From: Gnetum montanum
Lineage: Eukaryota > Plantae > Gnetophyta
Direction: 5' to 3'
Assembly (NCBI GenBank): GCA_015680685.1
Contig: MNCI01002249.1
Coordinates: 844,424-908,423 of the forward strand
DNA: 64,000 nucleotides
Shown in pieces: positions 24,283 through 62,889 of the stretch (within the stretch, counting starts at the first letter, position 1; every line of letters begins with the position of its first letter). A program made the translations under genes and the position numbers. The notes beneath the pieces were generated by a model that was not told where the DNA came from, searched no databases, and saw only the letters and a program-made list of their open reading frames with translations.

Positions 24283-27045
24283 GCAAGTTCGACCCAAGGT
24301 GGAGCAAAACAACCTAGGAGAGGTCGAAGACAAGTTCCTGCCGGACAACATAATGAACAGGAGGTGCATTCATTTAGCATCCATCAAGACGAACCTCCTA
24401 CCAGACGGTCCGGATAGGCAGAAGGAGGAGCTGCTGTGCCTGAACTGGGACAACAACTCACGTTGCCCCCCGAATGTGTTCAGGCCATCCACGCGAAGTC
24501 CACGATTGCTTCGGTAATTGTGGAACTCAACTTCGAATCTTTTGCAGAGTTCGCTCCTGAGGCTGTTAGGGATCACCTTAAAGGGTCTCCCTTCTGGCCT
24601 GTCCTCTCTGAACAAAGTGCCTGGTACTTAGGAGAAACGTACTTGTTTTGGCACAATAAAGAGCAAGGCACCACAGTAAACATCGGTGGTGTGTCAGTAG
24701 ATTTTTCTGCACAGGCGATTTCGGAAGTGTTAAATCTTCCGAATTCAGGCCCCCATGTTGCTCGGTTATCCACCCGATCCGACCCTGATGTGCGAAAGGA
24801 TTGGCTAGAGAAGGCTTATGGCAGAGATAAGGCTTTTGGTGAGCTGACCACGGAGGAGCGAGTCTATTTCAAAATCGGGACTTATCACCTCTTCCCCACA
24901 AAAGGCTTAAAGAGAATATCAACGTATGCGGCAAGAGGATGTGCAGTGTTGATGGGAAAGGTTAACGCTAACCTTCCTCATCTATATTTGACGGAGATCC
25001 TAAGGCGATTCGAAGAACGGAAGACAGGAAAAATGGCACTCCCTTTTCCCTGTCTTATCAGAAAACTGTGCCGTCGGGCAGGTATTCGGGGATATACAAA
25101 TGACGTCCTCCGAAAGGCCCAAAATGCTTCTTATGCTGAATTGTTAAAGGCGCCAGCTCCAAGAAAGAGTACTGGCGAAGAGTTGGGACCAGATGAAGAA
25201 AATGAAGAACAGGTGACTGAAACCCCTGCAACTCAGCTTGCAGGACCCAGTCAACCTCCAGCCACAGGTCCTAGCCAACAACAAGAAGCAGAACCCGGCA
25301 CAGGCCAGGATCAGCCGCCGCCGCAAGACTATAGACCGTCAATGAGCCACTTGAGGGCTATTGCTGAGACGGTCAGTTGGGGAAGTCGTGATGACACCAG
25401 TCTTTTCCGTGTCATCGATGATGCCAGGCAGCCTACAATTTCAATAGATCGCACAAGGGGTGAGTTGTCAGTACAAACAGGAGGAGGGGAAAGTAGATGG
25501 TCACAACAGATTTCTGGACATGCGGCATCTTTTCAAGTGCAATTAGAGACTGGTGAAGGGGCCACAGTGGTGGTCATGCAACACCAGGATGCCGCAGGAG
25601 CAGCTGATGTGGTAACTGACTACATCAAGGAATCTTTTCATGTACCTGTTGTGCCACCGGCAGATCTTTCAGGAGCACAGGATGCTCAAACCATTGCCGG
25701 AACCTCAATGACTCCTGCAGAACATGAGGATGCATTGGACAGATTGCTTCAAACAGGACAAGTTTTAACGTCTCTGTTTGACATCCCTCAGGATGTAACC
25801 GCAATGCAATCAGACCTCATTTCAACCAAGGGGAAACTGGTCATATCCGAAGTAAGGGCTGAACATGCTGAGGCTGAAGTGTAGAAATTACAAGAGCAGC
25901 TCATCGCCTTACAGGCAGCACAGCGGGATCCCTTGCGATTGGTTCCCGCAGACCAGTTAGACAATTTTAAAACCGAGCAATTAACCAAATTAATTACAGA
26001 AAATAAAAAGGTGGCAGAAGAAAAGGAGATGGCCACTTGGGATGCCTCCGCAGCACAGGCGCAAACTCATGTGCATCTTAAGGCACTCAAGGCCTTACAA
26101 GAAAAAAACAAATAGTTGATTGCTGATAACCTTCGGTTGACCTCTGTGGAGAAGCAAAAGAATGTTCTCGATGAGCACTTTCATCGGCTTCGGGAACAAT
26201 TCATTTGAGTCAACCAAGACGTAAGCCGTTTAGCCAGAGAAAATAGAACCCTCTCAATGGAGGAGATGCGCGCTATTCGACAGAAGTCAGCCATCGAAAT
26301 TAGCGCGTGGCAGAATGAGGCTAAATGACACGAGAAGCTGAAGGAGCACTTCCGTGACCAGGTGGGGATGTACAAACAGATCCTGGAAAAGGATATCCTT
26401 ATGGCAAAAGCCCAAATCAACAACATCAGTGCCCAGCACACTGATTGGGGGGCCATATTGGACACTTATGCCTATGCCCACCAGGCGGAAATTAAGAACC
26501 GGGACCTGCAGATCCAAGACTTAACTGAATACATGGAGTTGGCAAATCTTCGGTATGCCAACCTGGCCATGTTAACGGCAGGACGCCTGAGGTCAGAGCT
26601 CGAGCAGCAGGTAGCTTCCACCTACATCAAATATGAAGCAGAGTTTACAGAACAAAAGAAGTTGGCGGAAAAATTAGATGTTGCAAATTCTGAACTTGCG
26701 GTGGTAAAAGAGAGCTACCAAGGGTAGAAAGATGTAGCATCCGACTTGGCTCGACGGCTCACAGAACTTCACGAATATAAAGACAAAGCCAGAGCCTTTG
26801 AAGAGGAACGACGGGTGTTTGCGGCATGGTACGTCAAAGCTAATCAGATGTTCCCGCAACTACCCTGTCCGTGGGAAGTGCCGACTCCATCAAACATTGG
26901 AGTATCAGCATGGACGACACAAGACCCTCGGACCGAAGAGGAGAAGCTCCAGGCTATTCTTTAGTATCATCAATCTTCAAAACTTGGAGCACGTGACAAA
27001 GGGAAAGCACCCATGGAGGAGCCACCGCCACCAGGAACTACATGA
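24283..27045 (+). pseudogene. Athila-like extra (env-position) ORF, young copy, ~920 codons, N-terminus missing
   Basis: One continuous frame broken only by stops at 24415, 25882, 26113, 26206, 26326, 26725 and 26962; plant transposon protein (PF20167-like) pattern GVSVDFSAQAISEVLNLP...LPFPCLIRKLCRRAGI; long coiled-coil C-terminal half. Confidence 0.8.
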
Positions 27046-27182: not shown

Positions 27183-27216
27183 CTCGAGGACGAGTTTTTA
27201 TTCAGTCGTGGGGGTA
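27183..27216 (+). promoter_or_regulatory. Athila-type PPT region
   Basis: CTCGAGGACGAG...GTCGTGGGGGTA immediately before the LTR TGATGA. Confidence 0.75.
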
Positions 27217-28190
27217 TGATGAGACGCGGTTTGCGTCGGCCGCGATATCGCGTACGCGATATCGCGTCCTTCCCTACGATATCGCGTACGCGATATCGCA
27301 GTCCGCCGCCATGTCTATAAATAAGAGGCGGCACTCCCTTGTTTGGGGATCCCAGTTTTAGTGTAGCGAAGCTCTGGCAGTTTGATCCCTCCAGAGTTAG
27401 AATTTTCCCGTGTCTGCCCGCAGTGTGGTGAATGTGATTGTACGGTGTCTTTATTCGAGTGTGCCGTACTTGGACACGCACATGACCGGCAATAAAGATC
27501 GAGATTACTTCATCATTGCAGCATTCACTTAGTTTATTTATTTGTTATTTATTTAATGTTATTTATTGCTTTCATAGCGCGGTGTGAGTACGACTTAACT
27601 ACGAGCATCTACGGGTGTGTACGGCTAGTTAAGGAATCGGTTACTCATCGCGATTAGTTTCTCACCCTTAAACTCCTAGAAGCGGAACGAGTACGACTTG
27701 ATTACGAGCATTTAAGTGTGACTGCTTGGTAGCCCAGTGGTGTAGCTAGGGGGATCTACGCTTGGTAACCCAGTGGCGTATTTGGGGTCTGCGCTTGGTA
27801 ATCCCAGTGGCGTACCTAGGCCTATGCTTGGTAGTCCCAGTGGCAGTCGTGCATGAAGTCCAAGATGTGTACGGTTGATCAAGGAATCGGTTGCTCGTCG
27901 CACTTAGGCTAGATTAGATTTTCTTACCCTTTTTCCTCTTAGCTTAGATTAGTTAACATTATTTTCCATTGCCATCAGGAGTAGCGTTAGAATTAGAATA
28001 CATCATACACCTCATCTAGACTAAACCATACGTGACATATGCAAAACTAGTCTAGATGGGAAGATAGCGAACTGCGACCTAAGGCTAACTATCTAGGTGC
28101 CACAACTAGTCCATCTGCGGAGTTCGACCGGATCACGCGTGCGATGCTCGTTTCGTATGGTTGAGTGTAGGGGTACCTCGCCACTCATCA
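27217..28190 (+). mobile_element. Athila-like 3' LTR, young and CpG-intact (copy A)
   Basis: TGATGA...TCATCA termini; CTATAAATA at ~27315; homologous to five other LTR copies in the window. Confidence 0.92.
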
Positions 28191-29989: not shown

Positions 29990-31349
29990 AGAAAGCTTCA
30001 TCTCTAGTAAGTTTTGGCCAAGAATGATAGGGTCTAATAAGTGAGCTTTCAATTCTATAACCTTAACTACCAACAATTAATTACTATTAATGGCTTCCTT
30101 AAGTTACATTTATGCAATTAGAAGTTTACCCCTTATCTCCAGTAGTAGTAATTGGATTGTTGAAATATCTTTTGGAATATCAAAGATCTTTGGAATTAGT
30201 TGCCTAACTCCAATTAGTTGCTCTAGAACTTTCTCATGTTGCACTGCACTTATTCCCTTACTCTCGCTTCTATAGATATTTGAATATTTGCCATTACAAA
30301 AATATTTAGAATAGAGGCTGCGTGAGCACTTAAAGCCTCTTCAATTATATTTTTCATAACCTATGATATTATTTCCTAGCCCTTGTGTGACATAACTAGG
30401 ACTATTACACCTTCATCTTCTTCTAACATTATGGAGAAAGCCACAACACTTCCAGAGATTTTGCGAAGTGGTTCTTGTGGCACAGACACTGTGATTTCTT
30501 ATGTGTTGGGATTAGTGTGAAAGGAGCCAAGTTCTTCCGTGTAGAGAACAAATGGGCTAGGACATTTGCTAGCCAATTGATAGTCCTTACCACTTCATTG
30601 AGATGACTCATGGATAAATGGTACATTAAGAACTTGCCACTACTCCCATAGGCTTGTTTCTACAACTACTATTCCCTAAGTTTCCTTAAGCATTTAGCTA
30701 CTGCTGGCATCTCTAGTGTCATCTCAGGTGCTATTAATGATGGTGGAGTTTCCACCTTCTCTTGAAGCTTGGCAAGGGCCTTATCTTTCATCATTTCTTG
30801 CCATGATTTGGTAGGGGCCCTATAGATCATATCATTGGAATAGTGAGCCATTCCTCTTCTTTTGTAAAGTTTTCTAATGAGGCATAGGAAGGGGAGTGTC
30901 TTCTAACCCTTCTCATTCTCCTTAAACTACTTCTTGATTTTCAAGAAGATGAATTACAGAAGGTTGACTTGGAATTTCTTACTTAGAGCTGGACATGCCC
31001 TTGCATAAAACGTAGTGACTTTTCTTGGTCCAAAGTTTAGTTCTTGGAGAATTGTGTGTTAGACTTTCCTACTCTATACCTTTTCTAACTAGGCCTCTGT
31101 TAGAGTAACTTCCAGGTTTGCCTTGGATCTTGGGACCTCATCCTACTTGGATTACCTTGTCTTTGCAGTGGGAACTTGGTGAATAGATTCCACCTCAAGT
31201 TCTTGTTGTAGGAGATTTGTAGCATGAGTCACCTCAACAACTTGCTTCTGCTACTATGGTGGTTACTACTACTATCCCCTACCTCCTCTTAGTCTCTTTT
31301 CCTTGGGTTGTGATGATCCACCTACTTGTGATCCCTATTTTAGTACCAT
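29990..31349 (-). pseudogene. Extra-ORF copy of element B (decayed, truncated)
   Basis: Starts MVLK*GSQVGGSSQPKEKR; contains LPFLCLIRKL..HYSNDMIYRA and YHLSMSHLNEVVRTINW, homologous to the 24.3-27 kb ORF. Confidence 0.75.
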
Positions 31350-36013: not shown

Positions 36014-36897
36014 TGATGAATCATGGTTTGCTACGTGCTGATATCAGACCCCTGATATTAGGTACAAGATATCAAGTCTGATGAGTCCCGATATCGGACC
36101 CCCGATATCGTAGCCTAGTTAGCGATATTAGATACGTGATATCGTGGTTCCCGTGTTAGCCTATAAATACACAATTGGGCGCACAAGAAAGTCATAGGAA
36201 AAGTTAGTGTTAGAGTAGAGTCTTTTTGTTCATTTTTTAGTTCTTCTCAACTTTTTTTCCCCAGTGCATGCTTACAGTGTGATGATTGTAATTGTACAAG
36301 ACCTTTATTCAAGTGTGACGTACTTGGACATGCACATGATCAGAAATAAAGATCGAGATTACTTCATCATTGCAACATTCACTTAGTTTAATTATATAAT
36401 TTTTATTCATTGCTTTCTTACTTAATACTTCTTTACCCTCAACTCCTATCCCTGTTAGTAAATGTGAAATGGGTACGACTTAATCATGAGCATTTAAGTG
36501 TGACTACTTGGTATCCTAGTAGCGTACCTAGGATATGCACTTGGTAATCCCAGTAGTAGTCATACACGAGGTCCAAGATGTGTACGGATGATTAAGGGTG
36601 GATGCTCATCACACTTAGGCTAGCTTAGACTCTCTTCACCCTTTCCCTTTTAGGTTGATCAAAGTTATTTCCATTACCTCTAGGAGTAGCACTAGTTTAA
36701 GACCACATCATACACCTCACTTTGGACTAAACCATATGTGACAAAGCAAATACTAGTCCAAGTGGGAAGATAGCAAACTGTGATCAACGAGTAACTATCT
36801 AGATACCACAACTAGCCTATCTACGAAGTTCAACCAGATCATGTGTGAAACACTCATATTCATATAGTTGAGTGTAGGGGTAGCCCGCCACTCATCA
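36014..36897 (+). mobile_element. Athila-like solo LTR inserted in the pol of B
   Basis: TGATGA...TCATCA; perfect 5-bp TSD ATGCT on both sides. Confidence 0.93.
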
Positions 36898-39800: not shown

Positions 39801-41839
39801 AAGGCCCCCTTGTTTTGGATCTAGCTCTCTCCTTATGTTGGTTGCTTGCTAAGGTTGAACATAACTAATAAAACATGTGTATATGAATCCTATGATATTG
39901 TATCTATGAAATTAGAGTTACGATATGGTAACTCTGCATACATCATTGTAGATGTGATGTAGTGGGCCATGGTCATGCCTATAAATACCAACCCACTGTT
40001 GCATAAAAAAAAAAAACTTTTAGCCAACACTTAGCAAAATTTTTATAGTTTATTTTTGTGACTTAGAGTTAGAGTTAGAGTGAATGCCCGTAGTTTGGTG
40101 AGCAATAGTTATACGAAATCTTTATTCAAGTGGATTGTTGCTAGACACAATTTATGAATAGAAGTAAACATCAAGATTTTTTTTCATCATTGCATCATCT
40201 CACCTAGCTTAATTTTTACTTTTCATCATGTTTACTTGCATTAAGTTATTTACATTTTCTAAGTTCTTTTACATTCCAATGTCTCTTAGTAAGATGGAAT
40301 AAGTATGATTAGTTTCGAGCATAAAGTGTAACTTTTTGGTAACCTAGTATTGACTTTGCTTGGTTCACTTAGTAGTGAAATCACTTGGTAATGCCACTAA
40401 CTATTATATCAAGCCATAATGTGTACGGAAAACAATGAATGGTTGCTTATTGCGAATAGGATAGAATAGCTTTATGTTTTCATTGCACTTAGACATAGAA
40501 TTTACAATCATTTTTACCATGTTGGTACTTAGTGTAATTCGAGTGAAATAAAATCAATATATCATATATCTCACTAAGAGTTAAACCATATAATTTTTAC
40601 TTTGCCAACTCTATGTGAGAAGCAAACTATCATAAACTAAACATCAACTACTAGTATACTTATATTGTCCATCCACAAAGTATGAGCTGATTGCACATAA
40701 AGACTTGTGACTTGTATGGTTAAGTGTTAGAATACCTAAATACTCATCATTTATGTCATTGCAAGGGATGTGCCAATGTTTTCTAGTTAGTTGATTTTAC
40801 CAAGATTATTGTATTAAGCTTCATAAAATATAATTTTCATACTTACATTAATTTTCTCAAAAAGTATACACTTAAGTGTCAAACACTTAACATGGCTTCT
40901 ACAACTAAGGAAAAATCTCCACTTGCTAATGAATTTAATGAAAGTCATGACAAGGATTATAATGAAGAAGATTGAAGTACACTGATTTAAACCAAAATTT
41001 CCTATGCTTACACTCATCCTTATTATCCTGACTTTACATTTATTTTTCATCCAGATGAACAACTCAGATCGAGAGATTTACAAGGCAACATTATCTTGCC
41101 ATAGAAAAGTTCTACACCATCAATGCTTCAAGTAGGTCTTATCAGGATAAACCCTGGCCATGTACAAGAAGGCTACTACATCATCAAACACATGACTAGG
41201 TCATACTAGCCAACTGAGGCTTAGGCAAGAACCGATGCCATCATAAAGCTAAGGTATGAACAAGAAAAATGGAACAAATCACCTTAAATAGTTGTTATAG
41301 AAGAAAAGGAAGATGCTATATTCCAAACTAAGAAAATCTATTAGACTCATGGGTCTCATTCTCAAACACCAATCATTCATATTAAAGATCCTATTAAGAT
41401 AAAATTGCATTTAGCTCTTATAGAAACCCCTAGAAGAAATAAGGAAGACTCCAGACTTAGGAGGAGATCAAGGGCCAAGACCTCTATTGAATCTAAAAGT
41501 GATGAATTAAGGAGTTACCAAAGAAAAACCAACTCACACCATTCTTCAACTCCTTCATCTTCTTCCTCACATTCATCTTCAGATTCTAACAATAAAGAAT
41601 GAAGACTGAGGGATCATGATGGGGAAAGAAAAAGAAACCATGAGAGATGTACATATAGAAGAAGGAATCTTGATGAAGAGGAAGATAATCATGATGAAAG
41701 AAGAGAAAGGATTACACATGAGGAGAGAGAGCATCATGAGCATTTGAGGGATCATTACTACACCAGAACTTATGAACCCAAAGACTATGAACAATCATTA
41801 TTGGCCACTTGAAATATGATGAATATTAGGGAAGCTATG

Positions 41840-43672: not shown

Positions 43673-46600
43673 TGATGAGCAGCAAGCTATCCCTAATCTC
43701 AACCATACGAATCATAAGTGTTCACGCACGATCTGGTCAAATTCCATGGATGGGACTAGTTGTGGCATCTAGATCATTATGCCTTAATCACAGTTTGCTG
43801 TCTTCCCACTTGGACTAGTGATAGCTTTGTCATGTATGGTTTAGTCCAAAGTGAGGCATATGAGTCTTGATGTTGTGTTGGCCTTATGCTACTCCTATTG
43901 ATAATAAAGAAATCAATTATTTAAACAAATTAACAATGGAAAGTAAATTCTAAACTAGCCTACGAGTGATGAGTGTTAGTTCTTAGCTTGTCATACACAT
44001 CCTAAACCCATGCATCTACTCCTGGGGTTACCAAGTGCTATACTACTAGGCGAACCAAGTAATAATGCTACTAGGGTTACCAAGCAAATATGTGTTTACG
44101 CTTGAAATTGGTCATGCTCATTTTGCCAATTCATTAATATGCATGGAAATGTAAATATTAACTAAGTACATGAAAAGTAAATTGCATGGAAAATAAATTT
44201 GATATAAGTCAAAGTGCTACAATGAATAAGAATTAATATTGATCTTCATAGAATGTGTCTAGGTACATTGCCACTCAAATAAGATGTTGTACAACTAAAT
44301 TAGATCCACACTGTAGGCACTCACTAACTATTCTCTAAGACTACAGAATAAAACTGCAAGAGTTCGAATACTCTATTAACTAACTTATGCCCAAACCATG
44401 AGCCGAACCACTATATCTATAAGCCAGCATACATGTCACGATATTAGATATTTGACATCACTTCTTGGGCCTCGATATCAGAGCTAGATAAAATAAGATT
44501 CATCATAACCCCACAACTGAATGAAAACTCATCCTTGAGTGAAAAAAAGAAGGAACAAATCCCTTACAAAATATTGGGAAGGTATGGGATTATTGACTGA
44601 CGCTAACTACTAACTGACTCTAACTGCCGCATTATAAAATTTTATTCAAGTGGATGCATACAAAATCGTAAAGTGACAGAAAAACTGGATAGACATTGAA
44701 GATTAAAAAATTTGCAAAGCTTTTGAAAAATCTGTTAAAGATGATTCTACTTGTTGCCACTAATGATGGCAGACTTTCAACCTTGATTGTTATGTCGATG
44801 CTTCTCTAGTTATGCAAAACATTCTTGAAGGATGGATTGAAATTTCTTCTCATCATCCCATGGATCTAGCAAACATGTGATTTTTGAGCTACTATCTTAT
44901 ATGTGCTACAATTTGTCCATAGGCATATCCTTTGTTGTACTCCTCTTGGCTTCATTTTTGTACCTGGTAAAAGACCTTCTTCCTTAGGTGTTTCTTTTAG
45001 CATCACTTGTAGTCACCAAAGAATCAACATTAGGTTTGGTAAATTTTTCCTTAATAATCAATCCTTTTTGGATTCCTTAGTTTGTGTTTAGGCTATGGGG
45101 TAACTAAAATCATCAAGTTGTTCAGATTATTTTGATTGATTACTATTAGTTACCATGATGTTCGAAAATAACATGTTGGAAAAATTTCAAAAATTTCAAA
45201 GTAAGCATCCCTAGCCCCCATGACTAATAAGCATAACTCCAAAAGCACACAAGTTTTCAAAAAATTGAAACCAAAGGTCTAATTCATAAGATTATGAAGA
45301 AATATTAATGGATATGAAAATAGAAAAGTAGGAAAAATTAATGAAATAAATGAGAAGTAGTCTCAAAATTATGCATAAATTTAGAGAAAGCATCACTAAT
45401 GATCTTGAAGATCTCAAGGTTAGTTCAAAGCCATGATCAACAAAAGTTATGCAAGTGGGTCTTTCCTGAAGTAGGCTCTTGTCGTAATGCCCTTGCATAA
45501 CCACTTCTATAGATGTTCGTGGGCATCCAAGAAGTTAAATGTAGACCATGCCTTTTTTCCAAGCAACATACATCTATCATGGTTAGGATGTTGCACTATA
45601 CTATAAAAAAACCAAAAGGCTCATAATCGCATGCAGCAATGAGGTGAATAATGGGATGAGAAGGAATTGCAGAGATTGGGATGTAAGGTACTTGACCATG
45701 TCCAGAATAGGTTGTGAAAAATGTAATTAAAATGATTAGCATACCTATCTTTCCAAGTTCAGACTAAGTCCATACCATGAATAGTGACCTCGCATTGATG
45801 TATTTCTTCTTGCCGATCACCATGAGTTGACAACCACCTCAAGGAACAATCATCACTCCAAAAGGGAAGAAAATAGAAGAAGGAAGGGCCTTAGTTAGAG
45901 GGATGCCTTTAGGCATGGGTAACATGTCTTTCAAGCCCCATAACTAGTGCTTGTAGCCCATTATTGTGTCTAAGGGGTGTGCTTTGAATTTCTATTATTA
46001 TTATTTTTCTTTTTCTTCTCTTTTTTTTTAATTTTTTTTTTCTAATTTTTGTTTTGTTTTGTTTTTTTTTTTTTGAATTTTTGGATGGGAACCACACCAT
46101 GCAAATACATAGCTTCCTATTTATTAGTTGATGAAGGAGTGATGATACATTCATTGAGGAGTCATAAACCACACGAAGAAAGTCAAGAAGAGAACCCAAC
46201 AAGTCCCCTTGAGGTCACACCCTTTGCCATTCCCACTTGGTCATTCCCTCTTTCTTCAAGGTACAATGATCATTGATGAATTTTAGTTTAGAAAACGAAG
46301 AATCAAATTGTTTAGGTGATAAAGACCCTTTATTCAAAGAACTAGAGGGATGGATGAGGTGGTTTCATTGCTTTACACAATTACTTACCCAATCATCTTG
46401 ATAACATAGCACAAAAACCCAACACATAGCGTTGACTTCTACATCATGACTAGCAATATTATTAATGAAAGCATAAAAAGAAACATTCATTAAACATAAA
46501 GAAAATGACTCAAGAAAAGAAAAAAATATAAATAAAAAAATATTAAGAAATGGAAAACATATGAAGAATCATAAAATTTTGAAAGAAATAGGAAAATGTT

Positions 46601-49600
46601 AAAAAATTGTAAAACAAAAAAGGTGAAAAATACATATTTGTTCTTGAACCAGGATGGAGCATACAACTAATTTGATGGCCATGCATTCGATAGATGGATT
46701 GTATAATCCCTTGGTTATACACCATCAGTTTCCCATCTATCACCATTACTAATTTAATTAGTCGTGTGGTAGCACATACAACATTGGTGATAGTCTCGTT
46801 TGGATCATTCAAAGATGTATCTTCATCTGGACTTGAAGGTTTTGGGGGATCTAGATGTATTTGCTTCTTCTTCTTGATTTTTTATTTTAATTCCTGGGTC
46901 TCCATGTTTAATATCCTCTTCTAGTGCATAATCAAAGTGTAAGATATCTGTGTCTAAGTCCTTGGTTTAGTTCATTTTCTTAAGTCTAGAACTAATAAGC
47001 AAATCAATTACCTCCATGCATTTGTAAAATAATTTTATATTCTCATTTTCAACCCATTTGGTATCTTCTGGTTTAGTGGCTACTACGTAGATTGGTTTTT
47101 ACTCACACACTTGCTCCTGAACTTTATTGTGGGCTATGTTAATATTTTGAATTTCTAGCCCAGAACTGCACCCTTTACTATTAGTAGTGATGCATGGATT
47201 CTTCTATCTCTTCATTGTGCTAGATCCATCTCTTTTTTTAGGTGTTGGAGTAATGACAAATGTTGGCCCTTATGTAGGATTGGAAGACATTGGTCATGGA
47301 AGGAAGATTGTTGCACTTGATTGACATTGTGCTAGTTTGGATGAGTTAGTAGGTCCATGAGTGTTATGCTTATGTGTGGGAACCATCCTAAAGAAAGGAC
47401 GTTTCCAAGATTGTGGTGGAGATCTATTGGCATTATCATTTTTGTGTATGTTCGTAGCACAAATGGCATTCTATTGTTAATGTTGTGGTGCTAAGCCTTC
47501 CTGTGTTGCTGGTGGTGACATATGGTAGAGGGAAGTAGAAGAATATTGAAAATATGACAAAGGTTGAGAGGTGTGAGGTGGTGATCTCATGGAAGATGTT
47601 TCGGGATGATGATATTTGGGAGAGTGGTAGTAGTGATTTGAGGTAGTGGAAGTAGAACTAGTCAAGGAAATAGGTTGTTGAACATAATATCTATATGGGT
47701 CTGGCTAACAATAAGGGTAGTGTTGGTTTGATGATGGCCTCCCCCATGACTATGGGCTTTTCCACTGTAGTTGATGGTAGTTTTGAGGCTGATAAGAAGT
47801 CCCATTAGGATAGTACAGTTGGTTGTAAGATTGTCTATAATTACCTTATGAGTGAGGTAACTTCCTAGGAATTTGCTTTTGTACGAACTTGGGATTCAAT
47901 GCAAAATCCCAATACTTATGTAGATGTAACATGACTGGGCAATAACCCCTTGGATGGTCATATATATAGATGTCAGAGCCATCATCTTTTTTGGTGGTTG
48001 AGTCTATAGCCTCTTCTTCTACAATCATTTGTCCTTTTTGCCAATCAATGTTATTAACTGTCTCTTGGTCCCTTTTCCTCCTTTTGTTGTGGTCACTTGA
48101 TTTGTTTTGAATTACTCTCTACTCTATGATTTCTACACAGTTGTAACTTTCTCATTTATCCATTTCAACATCTTATCTAGCTTTGCTTCAAGCTCATCGA
48201 TAGACTTTTGTTGTAGCAAGGTTTGTTGTGAAGTCACCTCATCAAGAGTTGCCTATTTTTCCTTATCATAGATGTGGACCCTTTTCTTTTGAAGAGTTTG
48301 ATCCCAATTATTTTCCTCTACATTCTTTTGTTTACATAGCTATCCTTCTTCTTTTGCCACCCACTCAATTAGCCTTTATATCTAATGGGCTTTCAGTTCA
48401 TATAACTAACCTTGGGCATGAATCCCAAGGGTCTCCCTCATTTCATTATGAAGCCCATCTATGATGTGGAAAAGTTGCTCTTTTTGAGAGAAACCATGGC
48501 CTGGGCATTTATTCAATAGAGAATAGTATTTATTAAGGGCCATATCCAAGGGTTCATGTTGTTCTTACTTCCATTCTTGGATTGGTTTCCTTAGGTTGGA
48601 CACCCTCACATAGGTTTGGTATTTCTCATTGAAAAGTTCCAACATTGTGGACCATCGATGGATTGAGTTTGGTTTCAATGATTTATACCATACTTTGGCT
48701 TTATCTATTGGTGTCCTAGGAAAGAGCTTAAGATTTTTCCATATACTTTTGATGTTTTGTAAGACACAAGCATCATGGAAGGCTTGTAAATGATGTTGTG
48801 GATCAGAATCATAGCCTCCCACAAATTTAGAGATATTATTCATATCAAGCCTTTTTATGCAACTTTCCCTATGATGCCTGTGGGGTATTTTAACTATCTC
48901 CATGATTTGTAGCATGCTCTTAGTAAGCAACAAGGGTTTACTGTCGTCAAACATGTCATGGTGAAAATTTCTAGCTCTATTCATCTTATTGTGATGATTT
49001 TGTTTATGTTCATTTTGATGTCTTTCATTTTTCCTGTGGTTTTAGTTTCTATTTATATTTCGACCCCATAGTGAAGCTTTATCTTTATACCTACATTCAT
49101 GTTCATCAGAACTAGACGTTGAAGAGGAAGAGGAAGATGAGAAACTAGGAGAATTTCCATGGCCTCTATAGTATTCCCCATGGTTCCTTGATTTATCTTT
49201 TCTAGGTGTTGAGGAGGTCCCAGGCCTTAAGGCCTTCCCTAGTCTAGGACTAACTTCATCTTCTCTAGGATTGTTTGCCTTAGGTGAGTGTAGTCCTTGA
49301 GTGTAGTCAGGGTGGTTATGGACATATGAAACCCCCACATAAGATTGGTCACTCCAATTTTCTTTAGTATATATCTCGTGAGTTCTCCAATGAATGTTCT
49401 CTCCATACAATGCATCATCACTTCCTTATGAAAGAGACATTGTTGTTGGTTTATGATGTGTGTGATCTAGTATTTTCTAAAAGATAAAAAGTTAATGCAT
49501 TTACAATGATTGTGTATAATATATAATCTAGATAACTAGCACCATCCCTAGCAATGGGGCCAATGATGAGCAACAAGGTATCCCTACATCCAACCATACG

Positions 49601-50416
49601 AATCACAAGTGTTCATGCATGATCCAATTGAATTCCATGGATGGGACTAGTTGTGGCATCTAGATTGTTATGCTTGCCTTGATTGTAGTTTGTTGTCTTC
49701 CAACTTGGACCAGTGGTGGCTTTGTCACGTATGGTTTAGTCCAAAGTAAGGCATATGAGTCTTAATGTTTCATTGGCATTATGCTAGTCCTATCGATAAT
49801 AAAGAAATCAATTTAAACTAATTAACAATGGAAAGTAAAGTCTAAACTAGCCTACATGTGAGGAGTGTTTGTTCTAAGCATTCCATACACATCCTGAACT
49901 CATGGATCCACTACTGGGATTACCAAGCAGTATGCTACTAGGCAAACCAATCAATAATGTTGCTAGGATTACTAAGTGAATACATGTTTATGCTCAAAAT
50001 TGGTCATGCTTATCTCACCAATTCATTAATATGCATGGAAATGTAAATATTAAGTACATGAAAAGTAAATTACATGGAAAGTAAATGTAATCTAAGTTAA
50101 ATTGTTGTAATGAATAAGAACCAATCTTGATCTTATTGCTGTTCATGAAATGCGGTTAAGTACATTGCCACTCGAATAAGATGTCATATAGTTGACTCAA
50201 ATCCACATTGTGGGCACTCACTGATTATTCTCTAAGACTACAGAATAAAACTACAAGAGTTAGACTACTCTATTAACTAGCTTATGCCCAAACCATGTAC
50301 TTAAGTGTTATATTTAAAGGCTGGCACACATGGCACAATATTGGATATCTGACATTGCTTTGTGTACCTTGATATTGGGTGTCTAATATCAGAGCCAGAA
50401 AAAATATGGTTCATCA
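43673..50416 (-). mobile_element. Complete non-autonomous Athila-like element D
   Basis: LTRs 49564-50416 (5') and 43673-44505 (3'); TSD TAGAT; PBS TGGCCCCATTGCTAGGGA at 49545-49562; PPT ~44507-44515; decayed gag ~47250-49420; no RT or INT. Confidence 0.93.
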
Positions 50417-56485: not shown

Positions 56486-57877
56486 TCCAATGGCCAAGTA
56501 TCCTTTAAAAATAAAATGTGTTATTAATAAACTACTTCCTTGTACCTTATTACCAAGTGTTAATATTCCTTACAGATGTGATAGTCTTGTAGTTGTTAGT
56601 TTTAGGATGATACAATGTGATTTTACTAGTAAGTGGTATCTTGGACAGAAGGGCTAATGATCACTTTAACTATGCATCATACATGGAATTCATTATGCCT
56701 ATAGTAAGATATCTCATGTCCCATTTTTTGCAATCCCTACTACTTTCATTCCACTTCATTGTTATATACAATCACGGTTTAATGGTTTTGTATGATGTAG
56801 TGTTATTTTCTTATCAAGGCAATACTAACATGTGTGTTTTGGAACATAGGTATGTTTTACATTGAACTCCTTGAGTGCCTATTAACACTTTTAGGTGTGG
56901 TTATATAAATGCACTAAGGGGTAGAACTTGCTTTGAGGAGGACCCACTTGCATAAATTTTCTGCTTCATACTTGATGACTAATTCCAGATCATTGTGTAC
57001 ATCTAGAACACTCATACGATCATTGTTATCTTTCCTATATATTCATCTTTAATCATATGTTTAGAAATTAATAATCTCCTACAAACTTAATCAACTTACC
57101 TTTCCCAAACTCCTTCTTTCACATACTTTCAGTGATAAATTCTTGCAATACGAGCATCACCTATGATTAAGAATCCTTTGGACCATCTTTATACCTTCTA
57201 GAATATCTAATTTATCTAATTTTTTCACTAGAAATTGCACAAAATATTGAAAATTTTCACAGTGATATCATAGATATGATGTATGAGTCCCTGTGATATC
57301 ACATTATCTATAATGTATCCATGATAAAAATCTATATATATGCATGGGGAATTAGAAAATTTTTTCCATTCTCTCATTCAATGCCTAAGTAGTTCTTGTT
57401 ATTTTTCTGATCTCCAAACTTCAGAGATCCTTATCTTCCTCATTGTAACTCTAATTTAAGCCATTTTTGTTTTCTTTTGCTCATGGAGTGAGTAATTTAG
57501 TTGTGGGGAAGAGTACTACACCTAGTTGTGTGAATTACATTGCATTTTTCTAATGTATGGAATAATAAAGAAAGGGTAAGAATAATAGGAAATAGTTAGA
57601 TTTTAAATCAACAATGGCTAATAAGCTTGAGAATTCTTCCCAAACAATAATTCAATCACATTTTAACAAGAAATCAGCAATCGTGATGGGTCATGAAGCC
57701 TAAAATTATTTATAAGCATTAGGAAATTCTACAATTAAGGGTTTTTACAAGTTTTTTTGCTAATTTTGCAACTTCAATATAAGTTTTATTGTAACCTAAA
57801 AACTCAAGAAAGGGTTATGAACAGTTAGAGATTTTCATGAAATCCTTAGGTGGTCTTAAAGGAATTATTTATGATTG

Positions 57878-59540
57878 ATGCTTCCTAAAAGACCTGTAGT
57901 AGAAGGACCATCATAACAAAGGGGAAAGAGACCTAGAGGAACATGACAAGCTAGAGAACAAACTTCACATGCATAGCAAGAGGCCTAATTCTACAGTATC
58001 CATGAACCAACACCTGCGATAGAATAATCTACATAGGTAGAAGTTAATGCATTGCCTGCTTAGAAGCAAGAATAGCACCTTACATTATCAAAGGAATATC
58101 TCCAAGCAATCCAAGAGAAGTCTATCATGTCTACTATCATAATGAAACCAAACTTTGGACCATTCATGGAGTTTGCCCTTGCTAATGTTCTTGAAAAACT
58201 CCAAGACTCTCCTTTATGATCCACCATTTCAAACAATGGTGAATGATACTTGGGAGAAGTTTATCAATTTTGGAAGAACAAGTAGGATCATGCTATTGTG
58301 AAAATAGAGGGAATCACAATGCCATACTCTGTTGAAGCAATAGCCAAGGCATTGAACCTTCCAAACATCAAAGCTAACATCATTTAAATCTCTTCAAGGT
58401 CCAACAAATAGGCAAGAAAGCTATGGTTACAAAGGGCCTATGGGACTATTAAAAAGGAATACAATGGATTGATCATAGTTGAGAAGACTTACATCAAGAT
58501 TGAGACCTACCATTTCATCCCAGCAAAAGATTGAATAGAATTTTTACCTATGCTGCTAGAGGAAGAGCTATTCTAATGTGTAAATTCCATACCAACATGA
58601 CCCATCTACTAATGTGAAAATTCTAATGTGAAAATTCAAACAAGATTTATGGAAGAGAAGGTAGGGAAACTTACTCTACCATTCCCTCACCTTATCAAAA
58701 ACTTGTGCTAATAAGTAGGAATTCTGGGTTAAACCAATGATATTTTTCATAAAGCCCAAAATGCCTATATGGCAAAATTTCAAAAGTAGTGTTGCCAAAG
58801 AAAGACCAAGTGGAAAAACTAGTAGAAACTGAAGGAGTAGTTGGGTTTACACCACCAAGCAATGTTCTAGCCATAGGAATAGAGCAAGTAGGACCCAGTG
58901 GATCAACACCAGCAACCGATAGACCAAGGCCAAGTGCTCCTTTGGCATAAAAAGATTCCAAACCCTTACTAACACATTTGCAACAAATTGGTAAAACAAT
59001 AATTTGGGAAAGTAGAGAAGTTGCAAGTATGTACAGGATAAGGAACAATTCAACCAAGCCTACCATATTAATAGGACTTGCAAGTGGTTAAATCTCATTG
59101 TAGACAGGAAAAGTTGAGGAATGGGCATAACAAATATCTAGGAATGTCACATCTTTGTAAGTGATATTAGAAATAAAAGAAGGAGCCATAGCGATGATGA
59201 TGCAACACTAGGATATAGTAGGAATAATTGATGTTATCACAGATCATATCAAAGAGTCTTTTAATATTCCCATTATGCCACTGACTGATCTTACTAGAGA
59301 GAAATATGTAGAAAAAATAGACAAAACATCAATGACCCCAAAAAAGCATTAAGATATCTTAGACCAATTGCTATAGACTAGGAAAGTGATGAAAAATATC
59401 TTTGATATCCTAAGTGATATCATTGCAGTGCAATCAAAAATAATTTCAACTAAGGGTAAGCTAGTCATGACTGAGATCAAATTACAACATGTTAAAAATG
59501 AAGTGCAAAGGCTAGAAAAGAAATTGATTGCATTTACCAT
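57878..59540 (+). pseudogene. Extra-ORF copy of C, truncated in the coiled coil
   Basis: MLPKRPVVEGPS...; homologous to 24.3-25.9 kb (IFDILSDIIAVQSKIISTKGKLVMTE). Confidence 0.82.
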
Positions 59541-60208
59541 GTCACTGGAAAGACATGTTACCCATACCTTAAGGTAGTCCTACAGTAATGTCAACATAGT
59601 TAAAAATACGATCCATGTGCAAGAATAAATTTCTAGGGGTCCCACTAGAAAGACATGTTACCCATGCCTAAAGGTAGGCAACTTCTCAGGAATCTTAAAA
59701 AATAATAAAAAAGTGCAATTAATAAACTCCTTCCTTGGACAATATGCCAAGTGATAGTACTCTTTGCAATAGGAGTAGTCTTGTGATTGTGAATCCAAGA
59801 GATGAAACAATGAAATGTCATTAAAATACGGGCTGGACTTGTTGGAATCTTGGAAAAAAGGGCTAATGATTATTTTAACCATGAATAACACACAAGGACT
59901 CATTACACCTTTGATAAGACACCTAACATCCCAAGTTCAATAATCCTTTCTACAATTTGTCTCACCTCACTGTATAGTTAATCATAACTTGTAGTTTTGT
60001 GTAATATAGTGATATTTTTCCAATTCGGAAATGTTAGGTCATGAAAATTAAAGATGTAACATTTAAGGGGTTTCATTTTGAAAATTATTGTAACTTTGCA
60101 ATCATTATGAACTAAAGATGTGATCTAACCAAAAGAACGAGAAGCTTTATGAATCATTAATTGCCGATTTAAACACTTTGGTAATCCTAAACTTTTGATT
60201 AATTGTAG

Positions 60209-62889
60209 ATGGCCCTAAAGAGGACACTAGAAGAAGGACCCTCACAACTGGAAAACAAAAGACCAAGAGGTTGAGGAAGAGGTCACATTGGAGAACAAAC
60301 TCCACCAACAAAGCATGCAGAGTAAGAAGCCTAGTCTTTTAATATCCATCACCAAACACCTACTACTGAATACTTTGCCCAAGTAGAGGTTGAAGCACCA
60401 CAAGGACAGAACCTTACGCTATCACCTGAATGTCTTCAAGCCATCTAAGAAAAGTCAATCATGTCCATAGTTATTGTGGAATTCAATTTTGGTCCTTTTA
60501 TGGAGTTTTCACTAGAGACTGTTAGAACACAACTCCAATCATCTCCCTGGTGGCCTACCTTGTCAACAAGTGGAGAATGGTACTTAGGGGAAATCCTTCA
60601 ATTTTGATAAAACAAGCAAGCTAATTCCATGGTAAAGATAAAAGGAGTTTCCATGTCATATTTAGTGGAGGTGATAGTCAAAGTCCTCAATTTACCAAAT
60701 GAAGGGGCTAATGTAACATAGATATACACATGGTCTGATACTGATGTAGAGAGATTGTGGCTACACTGAGCCTATGGCAAGAAGGATAAGGAATATAGTG
60801 AGCTAACTACAAAGGAAAAGATATATTTCAAAATTGGCACCTATCATCTATTCCCAACCAAAAGGCTTAACAGGATTTCAACTTATGTGGCTAGAGGAAG
60901 CACCATATTGATGGAAAACTTAAATGTCAATATTGTCCATCTGTACTTTCTCAAAATCCAAAGATGATTTGAAGAGAAGAAGGTGGGGAAGCCAATAGTA
61001 CCATTCCCCTACCTGATCAGAAAGTTGTGCAAACAAGCAGACATACTTGGTTATACAAACAATGTTTTGAGGATAGATTAAAACACCTCATTTGTTGAGA
61101 TTTCAAAACCCATGCGTCCAAAGAAGGATCAATTGGAGAAATAGGTAGGTACTGAGGGAGCTATAGGCTCAAATCCTATTGACACCATTCAAGCTTCTAG
61201 CCAACAATAACAAGAAAGACTTAGTAGCTAGCCACCAGTTGATCGGCAACAAAAACAACAAGTTCCACCGTTGCCTCCATAGGATTATCAACCTTCTATG
61301 AGCCATCTATAGCAAATTGTAGATTCAATAAGCTAGGAACAAGAGAAGGGGCCAATCTCTATAAGGTCATAGAAGATGCAATCAGATCCACCATCTCAAC
61401 AGATCCTACTAATGGGCAGATATCATTGCATTTAGCAGGAGGGGATACTTGGTCACAAAAGATCTCAGGGAACGTTGCATCATTCCAATTAATGTTGGAA
61501 ACTAGAGAAGGAGCCATAGTGGTGGTCATGGAACATCAAGATCTAATAGGAACACTAAAGTGATTACTAATCACATGAAGGAGTCCTTCAATGTTCTTAT
61601 TGTGCCACTAGTCAATATCTCTAGAGTGTGACGCTCAAATGTTGGTTGGAACGTCAATGACTTTAGCTAAACATGAAGAAAACTTAGATAGGCTATTGAA
61701 GATGAGGCAAGCTATGCAACATCTTTTTGATATCCCTAGTGATATCATTGCAGTCCAATTTAAACTATTAGCCACCAAAGAAAAGTTTGTTATGGCCAAG
61801 ACTAGGGCAGAGCATATCGAGAATGAAGTCTAGAAACTACAAGAAGAGCTCATGACCTTAAGGACAGAAAGAAGAGATCCCATGTGATTCATGACACCTA
61901 ACCAACTTGATTAGTTTTAGATAGACCATGTAAATCATCTCATTGACCATAATTTGAAGATGGAGTGAGAGAAGGAGAAAGCGGTATAAGATGCCTCAGT
62001 GACAAAAGCACAAATGTATGTACATGCCAAGGCACTCACTACTCTAGAGGAAGAGAATAAACAATTAGCTATAGACAATGTTGAGTTCACTAACATTGAG
62101 TGCCAAAAGAACATTGTCGAAGAAAGCATCCAACAACTTCGAGAACAATTAGTTCAAGTCAACTAAGATACGAGTCGCTTGGCCTATGAGAGCAGGATCC
62201 TATCAATGGAAGATGTTCACACAATGAGATAGGTATATACAATTGAGATCAGCATGTGGTAGAATGAGGCTAAGAAGCATGGATGACACAAAGAGCATTT
62301 TTGAGATAAGGTGGACATGTACAAGCAGATTAATGAGAAAGAAATTTAGATGGATAAAGCCAAGATAAAGTCCATTTTAGTGCAAAATCCAAATTGGTAA
62401 TCAATCTTGGATAGTCTAGCCCATGTCCACCAAGTAGAAATTAAAAATAAAGACTTGCAGATTGATGATCTCATAGAGTACATGAGGTTAGTGAATCTAC
62501 GCTATGCTAACCTGGCCATGTTAACTATAGGTGGGTCCAAGAATGAATTAGAATAGCAAGTAGTGATCGTGTATGTTATGTATGAGAAAGAATTGGGTAA
62601 CAGAAAAGATGCACCTTAAAAGTTACACATGGAAAAATTAGAATTAGAAGTTGTTAAGGCTGGCTAACAAGGCTATAAAGATGTTGTAGCTAATCTAGCT
62701 CACAGAATGTTTGACTATTAGGAATCAAGAAAAATAGCCAGGTTATTTGAAGAAGAACGATGGTAGTTTGTAGCCTAGTATGTAAAGGAAAATCAAATGT
62801 TCTCACAACTACCATGCCCATGGGATGTACTAGCTCCATCACACATCACTCAACAAGGATGGACAATACAAAATCCTAGGATATGACAA
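60209..62889 (+). pseudogene. Near full-length decayed extra-ORF copy
   Basis: ttgtag|ATG start; collinear with the young copy through YFKIGTYHLFP, NLRYANLAMLT and FSQLPCPWDV; cut off at TGTTGA 62890. Confidence 0.85.

What the first reader, a model, noticed from the sequence alone, without database searches (positions are those of the whole stretch)
28010..28190. Conserved pseudoknot at the LTR 3' end with compensatory stem swaps
Seen: an 11-bp stem CATCTAGACTA (28013-23)/TAGTCTAGATG (28048-58). It becomes CAC(T)TTGGACTA/TAGTCCAAGTG in the 36.0-kb LTR and the 3' LTR of D, and CTCAC..AGAGTT/AACTCT..GTGAG (transversions) in the C LTR. The loop begins AACCATAYR in all six copies and is complementary to CGTATGGTT (28154-62), 120 nt downstream. 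That site sits just before a terminal GAGTG/CACTC hairpin that would abut the PBS in a 5' LTR. Inference: a long-range pseudoknot or kissing element that could control tRNA priming, dimerisation or gag translation.
Basis: partly seen in the sequence, partly recalled or inferred. Interest (0 to 1): 0.75.

Follow-up and report, generated by a model that had tools for sequence, protein, structure and literature searches.

The report
Athila primer-site RNA domain, possible pseudoknot
This is the end of the terminal repeat of a plant retrotransposon (Athila type), where paired sequence changes show conserved RNA stems that likely wrap the tRNA primer site the way retroviruses do, and a matching 9-base loop-and-partner pair may add a pseudoknot that would gate priming but is not proven.

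Summary
Window 28010-28190 is the U5 end of an Athila-type Ty3/gypsy LTR (27217-28190); six copies lie in the window, and RNA reads run on into a tRNA-Asp-type PBS. The 13-bp stem P1 has real compensatory changes (A vs B: 3 double changes, 0 breaks; 29 of 200,000 neutral simulations). It forms in both 5' LTRs of the window. In 8 of 9 unrelated Athila-type junctions from other records, 30 of 32 variable cells pair (1 of 40,320 permutations). The pseudoknot is only plausible. The loop lies in the longest invariant run and its partner is complementary (column shuffles 19 of 1000), but 6 of 9 pairs never vary, the two double changes sit at decaying CpGs, the energy is marginal, nested rivals exist, and the other Athila junctions show no common counterpart. 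Most likely the domain masks and presents the PBS to regulate priming or packaging; the pseudoknot (about 45%) would be a lineage-specific addition. My nine literature searches found no description of this Athila structure.

The parts
27217..28190 (+). 3' LTR of Athila-type element A (TGATGAG...CTCATCA), preceded by a purine-rich tract at 27208-27216
   Evidence: the eORF upstream hits PF20167
24418..25884 (+). intact 488-aa extra ORF (Transposase_32, PF20167) upstream of the 3' LTR
   Evidence: E 1.1e-13
27316..27323 (+). TATA-like box (inferred U3 promoter)
   Evidence: sequence
27491..27496 (+). AATAAA; read depth falls after it, so the structure is likely in U5
   Evidence: table 2 (the tool warns that reads are cut at the repeat 27522-27559)
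28011..28060 (+). hairpin P1, 13 bp (28011-23 with 28048-60), 24-nt loop, compensatory changes
28024..28032 (+). P1 loop 9-mer; its first 7 bases lie in the longest invariant run of the six copies (28022-30); candidate pseudoknot strand
28090..28117 (+). U5 strand of the U5-leader helix; pairs with the PBS tail and leader in a 5' LTR
   Evidence: homologous strands in C and D5 pair with their own leaders; other Athila junctions
28118..28130 (+). small hairpin with a T-loop-like GTTCGA motif, 3' of the U5 strand
   Evidence: sequence; an NCGA motif lies 8-11 nt from the helix anchor in 8 of 8 other junctions
28154..28162 (+). distal 9-mer inside the PBS domain; candidate pseudoknot partner, or nested partner of 28111-21
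28162..28187 (+). terminal hairpin abutting the PBS position; its 3' arm overlaps the integrase end 28184-28190
36079..36897 (+). copy B, LTR without PBS (solo; flanks do not match)
40548..40795 (+). copy C: end of a 5' LTR (ends 40749), decayed PBS and leader strand of the U5-leader helix
43673..44505 (-). copy D3, 3' LTR of element D (5-bp target duplication ATCTA)
49526..50416 (-). copy D5: 5' LTR (ends 49564), decayed PBS and leader strand of the U5-leader helix
53282..54173 (-). copy E, solo LTR inside the pol region of element C (flanks match at 4 of 5 bases)

Best explanation
This is the U5 end of an Athila-type retrotransposon LTR whose covarying stems likely fold, in the 5' leader of the genomic RNA, into a retrovirus-like primer-binding-site domain that would regulate tRNA-Asp priming, with a possible lineage-specific pseudoknot from the upstream hairpin loop. 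Shown by sequence comparison: element identity, P1 compensation, and a U5-leader helix whose inner pairs take the last five or six bases of the PBS. Inferred: the helix closes a multiloop holding a T-loop-like hairpin, the distal 9-mer, the terminal hairpin and the open 5' part of the PBS. Inferred: the tRNA nucleates on the open part and must displace the U5 strand, probably with Gag chaperone help. Inferred: reverse transcriptase then meets the terminal hairpin and the distal 9-mer first. Least certain (about 45%): the P1 loop docks on the distal 9-mer, within one RNA or between the two packaged RNAs, and holds the domain in a primer-ready or packaging-ready state.
For: Reads in two raw RNA runs run on behind 28190 into a tRNA-Asp-type PBS (308 and 156 reads, agreement about 0.5), and both 5' LTRs in the window carry decayed versions. 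P1: 3 double changes and 0 breaks for A vs B, 3 doubles (two of them transversion pairs) and 2 breaks for A vs C; a T-G pair at its base is kept in 5 of 6 copies, which fits the sense strand. U5-leader helix in the window: C -23.4 kcal/mol (2 of 1000 shuffled leaders as good), D5 -30.0 (0 of 1000); each pairs better with its own leader than with the other's (-16.3, -15.3). Other Athila-type junctions: 8 of 9 carry the motif; with the anchor set from U5 alone, 30 of 32 cells beyond the PBS are Watson-Crick pairs, 3-4 pair types per position, 1 of 40,320 permutations; these loci share almost no alignable sequence. The minimum-energy fold shows this helix in 7 of 8. Pseudoknot: the invariant run TAAACCATA lies in the loop; 51 of 54 cells pair; in 5 of 6 copies the best upstream partner of the distal 9-mer is this loop; in read tables the two 9-mers vary only at CpG. 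Precedent: in HIV-1 an extended PBS stem masks the primer activation signal (PMC1865047, passages); Ty1 has a pseudoknot near its PBS that forms in particles but not in vitro (PMC3592414, passages).
Against: No function was measured. The pseudoknot has no informative covariation: 6 of 9 pairs never vary and the 2 double changes are at the CpG, where decay runs at the background rate (9-18% vs 17% in run X1). Net energy is -4.7 to +1.3 kcal/mol before any pseudoknot loop cost. RNAalifold pairs the distal site with 28111-21 instead, and that helix absorbs the one non-CpG change (copy B) that breaks the pseudoknot. Only 1 of 7 other junctions with a similar distal motif has an upstream partner better than shuffles, and at a different place. 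The distal end is shared by far more family members than P1 (contig depth about 11-16 million vs 1-2 million in X1), so it may be conserved for its own sake. No primer-activation-signal match above chance was found. Folding z-scores are unremarkable. The U5/R border is inferred only. The motif used for the anchor was written after I had seen the nine loci.
Confidence: 0.62

Rival explanations
1. The PBS domain and P1 are real but there is no pseudoknot: the distal 9-mer pairs locally (28111-21, or a neighbouring hairpin) or binds a protein, the P1 loop is a Gag or host-protein site, and their complementarity is a relic or a coincidence.
For: Nested partner with one compensating change in B; the distal site is mostly paired locally in single-sequence ensembles; marginal energy; a similar distal motif without a partner in 6 of 7 other junctions; the match extends to a 15-of-17 inverted repeat in A, as an old inverted duplication would.
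Against: Local partners differ from copy to copy, whereas the loop pairing is kept in all six at 51 of 54 cells. It does not explain why the invariant run is exactly the complement (19 of 1000 column shuffles). The extension is poorly kept in C and D5.
Confidence: 0.4
2. A primer-triggered or branch-migration switch: the distal 9-mer alternates between the P1 loop and the U5 strand freed when the tRNA takes the PBS tail; the 17-bp extension would unzip P1 and the terminal hairpin together.
For: With the PBS held open, D5 refolds so that the freed strand pairs with the distal 9-mer. The three helices meet without spacer bases (sequence). The extension keeps 6 of 8 pairs in A, B, D3 and E.
Against: C does not refold that way (1 of 2). 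The extension keeps only 5 of 8 pairs in C and D5, many of them G-U, and does not follow C's changes in P1.
Confidence: 0.2
3. An intermolecular kiss for dimerisation and packaging: the loop of one genomic RNA pairs with the distal site of the other, as proposed for two complementary Ty1 hairpin motifs.
For: A 9-bp duplex of -10.9 kcal/mol has no pseudoknot loop cost in trans; Ty1 precedent (PMC5454406, abstract).
Against: Sequence cannot tell cis from trans. The distal site is not a hairpin apex. No palindrome is kept in the terminal loop across the copies.
Confidence: 0.2
4. A DNA-level feature: inverted repeats kept for integrase, or homogenised by template switching, with no RNA role.
For: The terminal hairpin's 3' arm overlaps the LTR end and shows no double change; quasi-palindrome correction can mimic compensation (general knowledge).
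Against: Athila integrase-end conservation spans about five bases (PMC4963935, passages), while P1 is 130-180 nt inside. T-G pairs and a bulge persist in P1. The U5-leader helix joins LTR to internal sequence and keeps a T-G pair in 7 of 8 junctions.
Confidence: 0.08

Closest known systems
HIV-1 PBS segment (extended PBS or U5-leader stem, PAS stem, tRNA-like element; PMC1865047 and PMC11181671, passages)
   Same: A U5 strand pairs with the leader 3' of the PBS and closes a multiloop with hairpins next to the PBS; there is a tRNA-like hairpin candidate.
   Different: The Athila helix invades the PBS tail; no primer activation signal above chance; the tRNA-like feature resembles a T-loop, not an anticodon arm; the word pseudoknot does not occur in the review's main text.
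Avian retrovirus U5-IR and U5-leader stems and the similar Tf1 structure (recalled; the Tf1 paper was seen only as a title in a reference list, and is not held)
   Same: A hairpin at the U5 end that overlaps the integrase end, plus a U5-leader stem.
   Different: Plant Ty3/gypsy element, tRNA-Asp primer, long U5 of about 670 nt, extra upstream hairpin P1.
Ty1 5' pseudoknot and SL1a-SL3a kissing loops (PMC3592414, passages; PMC5454406, abstract)
   Same: A long-range 7-9 bp pairing near the PBS, needed for retrotransposition; forms in particles but not in vitro.
   Different: Ty1 is a copia-type element whose pseudoknot starts at the RNA's 5' end and reaches into GAG; here the candidate lies in U5 and crosses the U5-leader helix.
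Athila clade (Athila4, Calypso, FIDEL, pine Gymny; PMC6317226, PMC2844528, PMC2633040, ATHILAfinder preprint)
   Same: tRNA-Asp-type PBS, RT-RH-INT order, 3' extra ORF, 5-bp target duplication.
   Different: The passages read describe junction motifs only, not U5 RNA structure; no RT phylogeny was run here.

Membership tests
Athila clade (OTA, Ty3/gypsy) | PBS complementary to tRNA-Asp directly after the 5' LTR | tested here: met
   reads behind 28190; decayed copies after C and D5; motif as printed
Athila clade (OTA, Ty3/gypsy) | Gypsy domain order RT-RH-INT | tested here: met
   element C, which shares this LTR family: RVT_1 (weak), RT_RNaseH, then rve
Athila clade (OTA, Ty3/gypsy) | No archaeal RNase H (which marks Tat) | tested here: inconclusive
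   no Pfam hit of any kind between protease and RT or after integrase, but the frames are heavily broken
Athila clade (OTA, Ty3/gypsy) | Extra ORF 3' of pol and 5-bp target duplication | tested here: met
   PF20167 ORF with homologues in C and the 30-31 kb element; ATCTA on both sides of D
Athila clade (OTA, Ty3/gypsy) | RT/RH/INT phylogeny against REXdb | not tested
   no reference set was on hand
Retroviral-type PBS segment | U5-leader helix enclosing the PBS | tested here: met
   (comparative evidence only)
Retroviral-type PBS segment | Hairpin at the U5 end next to the PBS | tested here: inconclusive
   26 of 30 cells paired, no double change
Retroviral-type PBS segment | Primer activation signal complementary to the tRNA T-arm | tested here: not met
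   0 of 14 sequences beat shuffles (best 31 of 300), using a T-arm strand inferred from the PBS
Retroviral-type PBS segment | Effect on initiation of reverse transcription or packaging | not testable with these tools
   needs bench work
RNA pseudoknot | Loop complementary to a site outside its hairpin, conserved | tested here: met
RNA pseudoknot | Covariation in the second stem | tested here: inconclusive
   both double changes are at a CpG; 6 of 9 pairs invariant
RNA pseudoknot | Both stems formed at once | not testable with these tools
   net energy marginal without a loop term
Known Rfam family | Match at the gathering score | tested here: not met
   0 matches in the window; nothing over the finding at E below 6

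The most novel reading that the evidence does not exclude
Athila elements across seed plants fold a conserved, apparently undescribed retrovirus-like PBS domain with a tRNA T-arm mimic, and this family adds a long-range pseudoknot that locks the domain and is released or remodelled when tRNA-Asp anneals, coupling packaging to priming.
Probability: 0.2. Interest if true: 0.72.

Novelty: new variant of a known kind. Interest (0 to 1): 0.48.

Why it matters
Athila is one of the most abundant plant retrotransposon clades and colonises centromeres, yet my searches found no RNA-structure model for its leader. A covarying helix that covers part of the PBS gives a direct way to test how plant Ty3/gypsy elements control priming, and whether they shield the PBS from tRNA fragments, which are reported to bind Gypsy PBS sites (PMC11962134, passages). 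It also offers a structure-based seed for finding Athila LTR ends. If the pseudoknot is real it would be a second retrotransposon PBS-proximal pseudoknot after Ty1, in a different superfamily. If it is not, the finding is an expected kind of leader structure newly mapped in this clade.

Tried and rejected
No whole genome is held for the window, so covariation rests on six copies and on read tables without haplotypes. A PBS scan of viral contigs gave 0; the metagenome scan gave 2 loci and the genome scan 9. Of those 11, L123 and L127 were dropped as GC-rich bacterial chance matches, and L125 has no U5 motif. No gag match was found downstream of the nine remaining loci (many are short), so they are Athila-type by PBS and motif only. 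No tRNA-Asp gene could be fetched, so pairing of the loop with the tRNA D-arm or anticodon is untested. The primer-activation-signal test was negative. The covariance model found nothing in the other loci. The eORF search found no homologue. No RNA holder was listed among indexed runs. Rejected: a palindromic dimer site in the terminal loop (not conserved); the 17-bp rival helix as the main fold (weak in C and D5); a known Rfam family; direct control of gag translation (distance).

Full report
Setting. The window is AT-rich plant DNA filled with nested, mostly decayed LTR retrotransposons. The host is likely a gymnosperm: the RT fragment at 29.6-30.1 kb, which belongs to a neighbouring element, has its best named hits in Taxus, Cryptomeria and pine at 50-60% identity (inference). 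The finding is the last 180 nt of an LTR at 27217-28190 that begins TGATGAG and ends CTCATCA, follows a purine-rich tract, and lies downstream of an intact PF20167 ORF. Near-identical sequence is held by runs under several organism labels. Five more copies of this LTR end lie in the window: B and E without PBS, C and D5 as 5' LTRs with decayed PBS, D3 as a 3' LTR. Element C has RT, RNase H and integrase in gypsy order, D has a perfect 5-bp target duplication, and raw RNA reads continue behind 28190 into a tRNA-Asp-type PBS. This is the Athila pattern as given in PMC6317226 (passages and section 13), PMC2844528 (passages) and the ATHILAfinder preprint (parts 1-2 of 4). No RT tree was built. A TATA-like box at 27316 and AATAAA at 27491, with a several-fold fall in presumed-sense read depth after it, suggest that the structure lies in U5 and so exists only in the 5' leader; the tool warns that reads are cut at a repeat there, so this is soft.

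Observation. P1 is 13 bp with a 24-nt loop and is recovered by RNAalifold. In structural register A and B differ by three double changes with no break, and C differs from A by three doubles, two of them transversion pairs, with two mismatches. Neutral simulations at the measured background divergence reach this in 29 and 945 of 200,000 runs. None of these changes is at a CpG. In read tables the two sides of one swapped pair both vary (28018 and 28053), though linkage cannot be seen. P1 is therefore a real, selected stem.

Pseudoknot. The longest invariant run of the six copies, TAAACCATA, ends P1 and opens its loop, and the distal 9-mer is its complement; a helix of 9 or more kept by at least 5 of 6 rows appears in 19 of 1000 column shuffles. 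But 6 of 9 pairs never vary, both double changes are at the CpG, and 3 of 54 cells are broken. Among the 40 of 41 variant rows shown for four runs, the only ones in the two 9-mers are the CpG positions, at background decay rates. Holding both 9-mers open costs 3-7.5 kcal/mol and the duplex returns 3-11, a net of -4.9 to +1.3 before any loop penalty. Single-sequence folds give the distal site a different local partner in different copies; the alignment fold pairs it with 28111-21, a helix that happens to absorb B's non-CpG change. In A the match extends to 15 of 17 bases, which would open both hairpins, but the extension is weaker in C and D5. I put a real loop-distal pairing, cis or trans, at about 45%.

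In both 5' LTRs, the U5 stretch homologous to 28090-28117 pairs with the PBS tail and the next 20-30 leader bases: -23.4 and -30.0 kcal/mol, matched by 2 and 0 of 1000 shuffled leaders, each preferring its own leader. To test generality I scanned public contigs for an LTR end plus PBS and got 11 loci; 2 were bacterial chance matches, leaving 9. In 10 of 11 junctions (those 9 plus C and D5) the best duplex for the leader falls at the same place, just 5' of a T-loop-like motif; singly, only 6 of the 11 beat 95% of shuffles. With the anchor fixed from U5 alone in the 8 loci that have the motif, the four positions beyond the PBS pair in 30 of 32 cells, all Watson-Crick, with 3-4 pair types each; 1 of 40,320 permutations reaches this. 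The loci share almost no alignable sequence. The motif was defined after viewing the loci and their hosts are not shown. These junctions show no common pseudoknot: 1 of 7 with a similar distal motif has a better-than-shuffle upstream partner, at another position.

Mechanism. The anatomy is that of a PBS domain: P1, a 25-30 nt linker, then a long helix closing a multiloop with a T-loop-like hairpin, the distal 9-mer, the terminal hairpin and the open 5' part of the PBS. By analogy with HIV-1, where an extended PBS stem regulates initiation (PMC1865047, PMC11181671; passages), the tRNA would nucleate on the open part and displace the U5 strand from the PBS tail; RT would then meet the terminal hairpin and the distal 9-mer at once. 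A P1 loop docked there would act as a clamp, plausibly only in particles, as for the Ty1 pseudoknot (PMC3592414, passages), or between two RNAs, as for the Ty1 kissing motifs (PMC5454406, abstract). These steps are inferred. A primer activation signal was looked for and not found. Refolding with the PBS blocked moved the distal site onto the freed strand in D5 but not in C, so a switch is possible but weakly supported. A DNA or integrase explanation covers at most the last few bases (PMC4963935, passages).

Novelty. No Rfam family matches. Nine paper searches listed no description of U5 or leader RNA structure in Athila; the search for Athila with pseudoknot gave two reviews on other topics, seen as listings only. 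PMC3601003 (passages) states that plant Metaviridae LTRs could not be modelled. PMC2633040 and PMC11962134 were read as passages. Older subscription papers such as the Athila4/Calypso description were not read, no supplements were opened, and they may hold such a remark. The avian U5-IR and U5-leader stems are recalled, not read. Verdict: a real RNA structure of a known kind, newly mapped in Athila, with an unproven lineage-specific pseudoknot. Interest 0.48.

Noticed in passing
window 27229-27313: The U3 start carries a near-perfect palindromic array of CGATATCG-type units that folds as a long hairpin; similar units open copies B and E. It recalls the palindromes of Sirevirus LTRs (search listing only).
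   Followed up: no
window 27580-27900: U5 holds sub-repeats: two copies each of two blocks of 30-40 nt and about four CCCAGTGG units; reads show 75-76 nt deletions between units.
   Followed up: no
window 28114 (run X23): 129 RNA reads share only the last 77 nt of the LTR and carry unlike sequence upstream, which suggests a transcribed sister family with a different upstream U5; it would be a natural test of the pseudoknot.
   Followed up: no
window 57731-61850: Element C carries two tandem copies of the PF20167-type extra ORF, both broken.
   Followed up: partly
window 44505-49564: Element D appears non-autonomous: about 5 kb internal region with a gag remnant, and no pol match in the tblastn.
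   Followed up: partly
window 24290-24420 and 30000-30120: Element A looks 5'-truncated just before its intact extra ORF (GC rises at about 24.3 kb), and the minus-strand element at 30-40 kb abuts another RT-RH-INT run directly after its extra ORF.
   Followed up: partly
L124, L125, L126, L128, L129, L130, L131: Contigs filed in prokaryotic genome records carry plant Athila-type LTR-PBS junctions, likely host or sample contamination.
   Followed up: partly
L121-L131, about 80-130 nt before the PBS: A small hairpin with a tRNA T-loop-like motif follows the helix anchor in 8 of 8 junctions; in L126 the closing stem differs in sequence but still pairs.
   Followed up: partly
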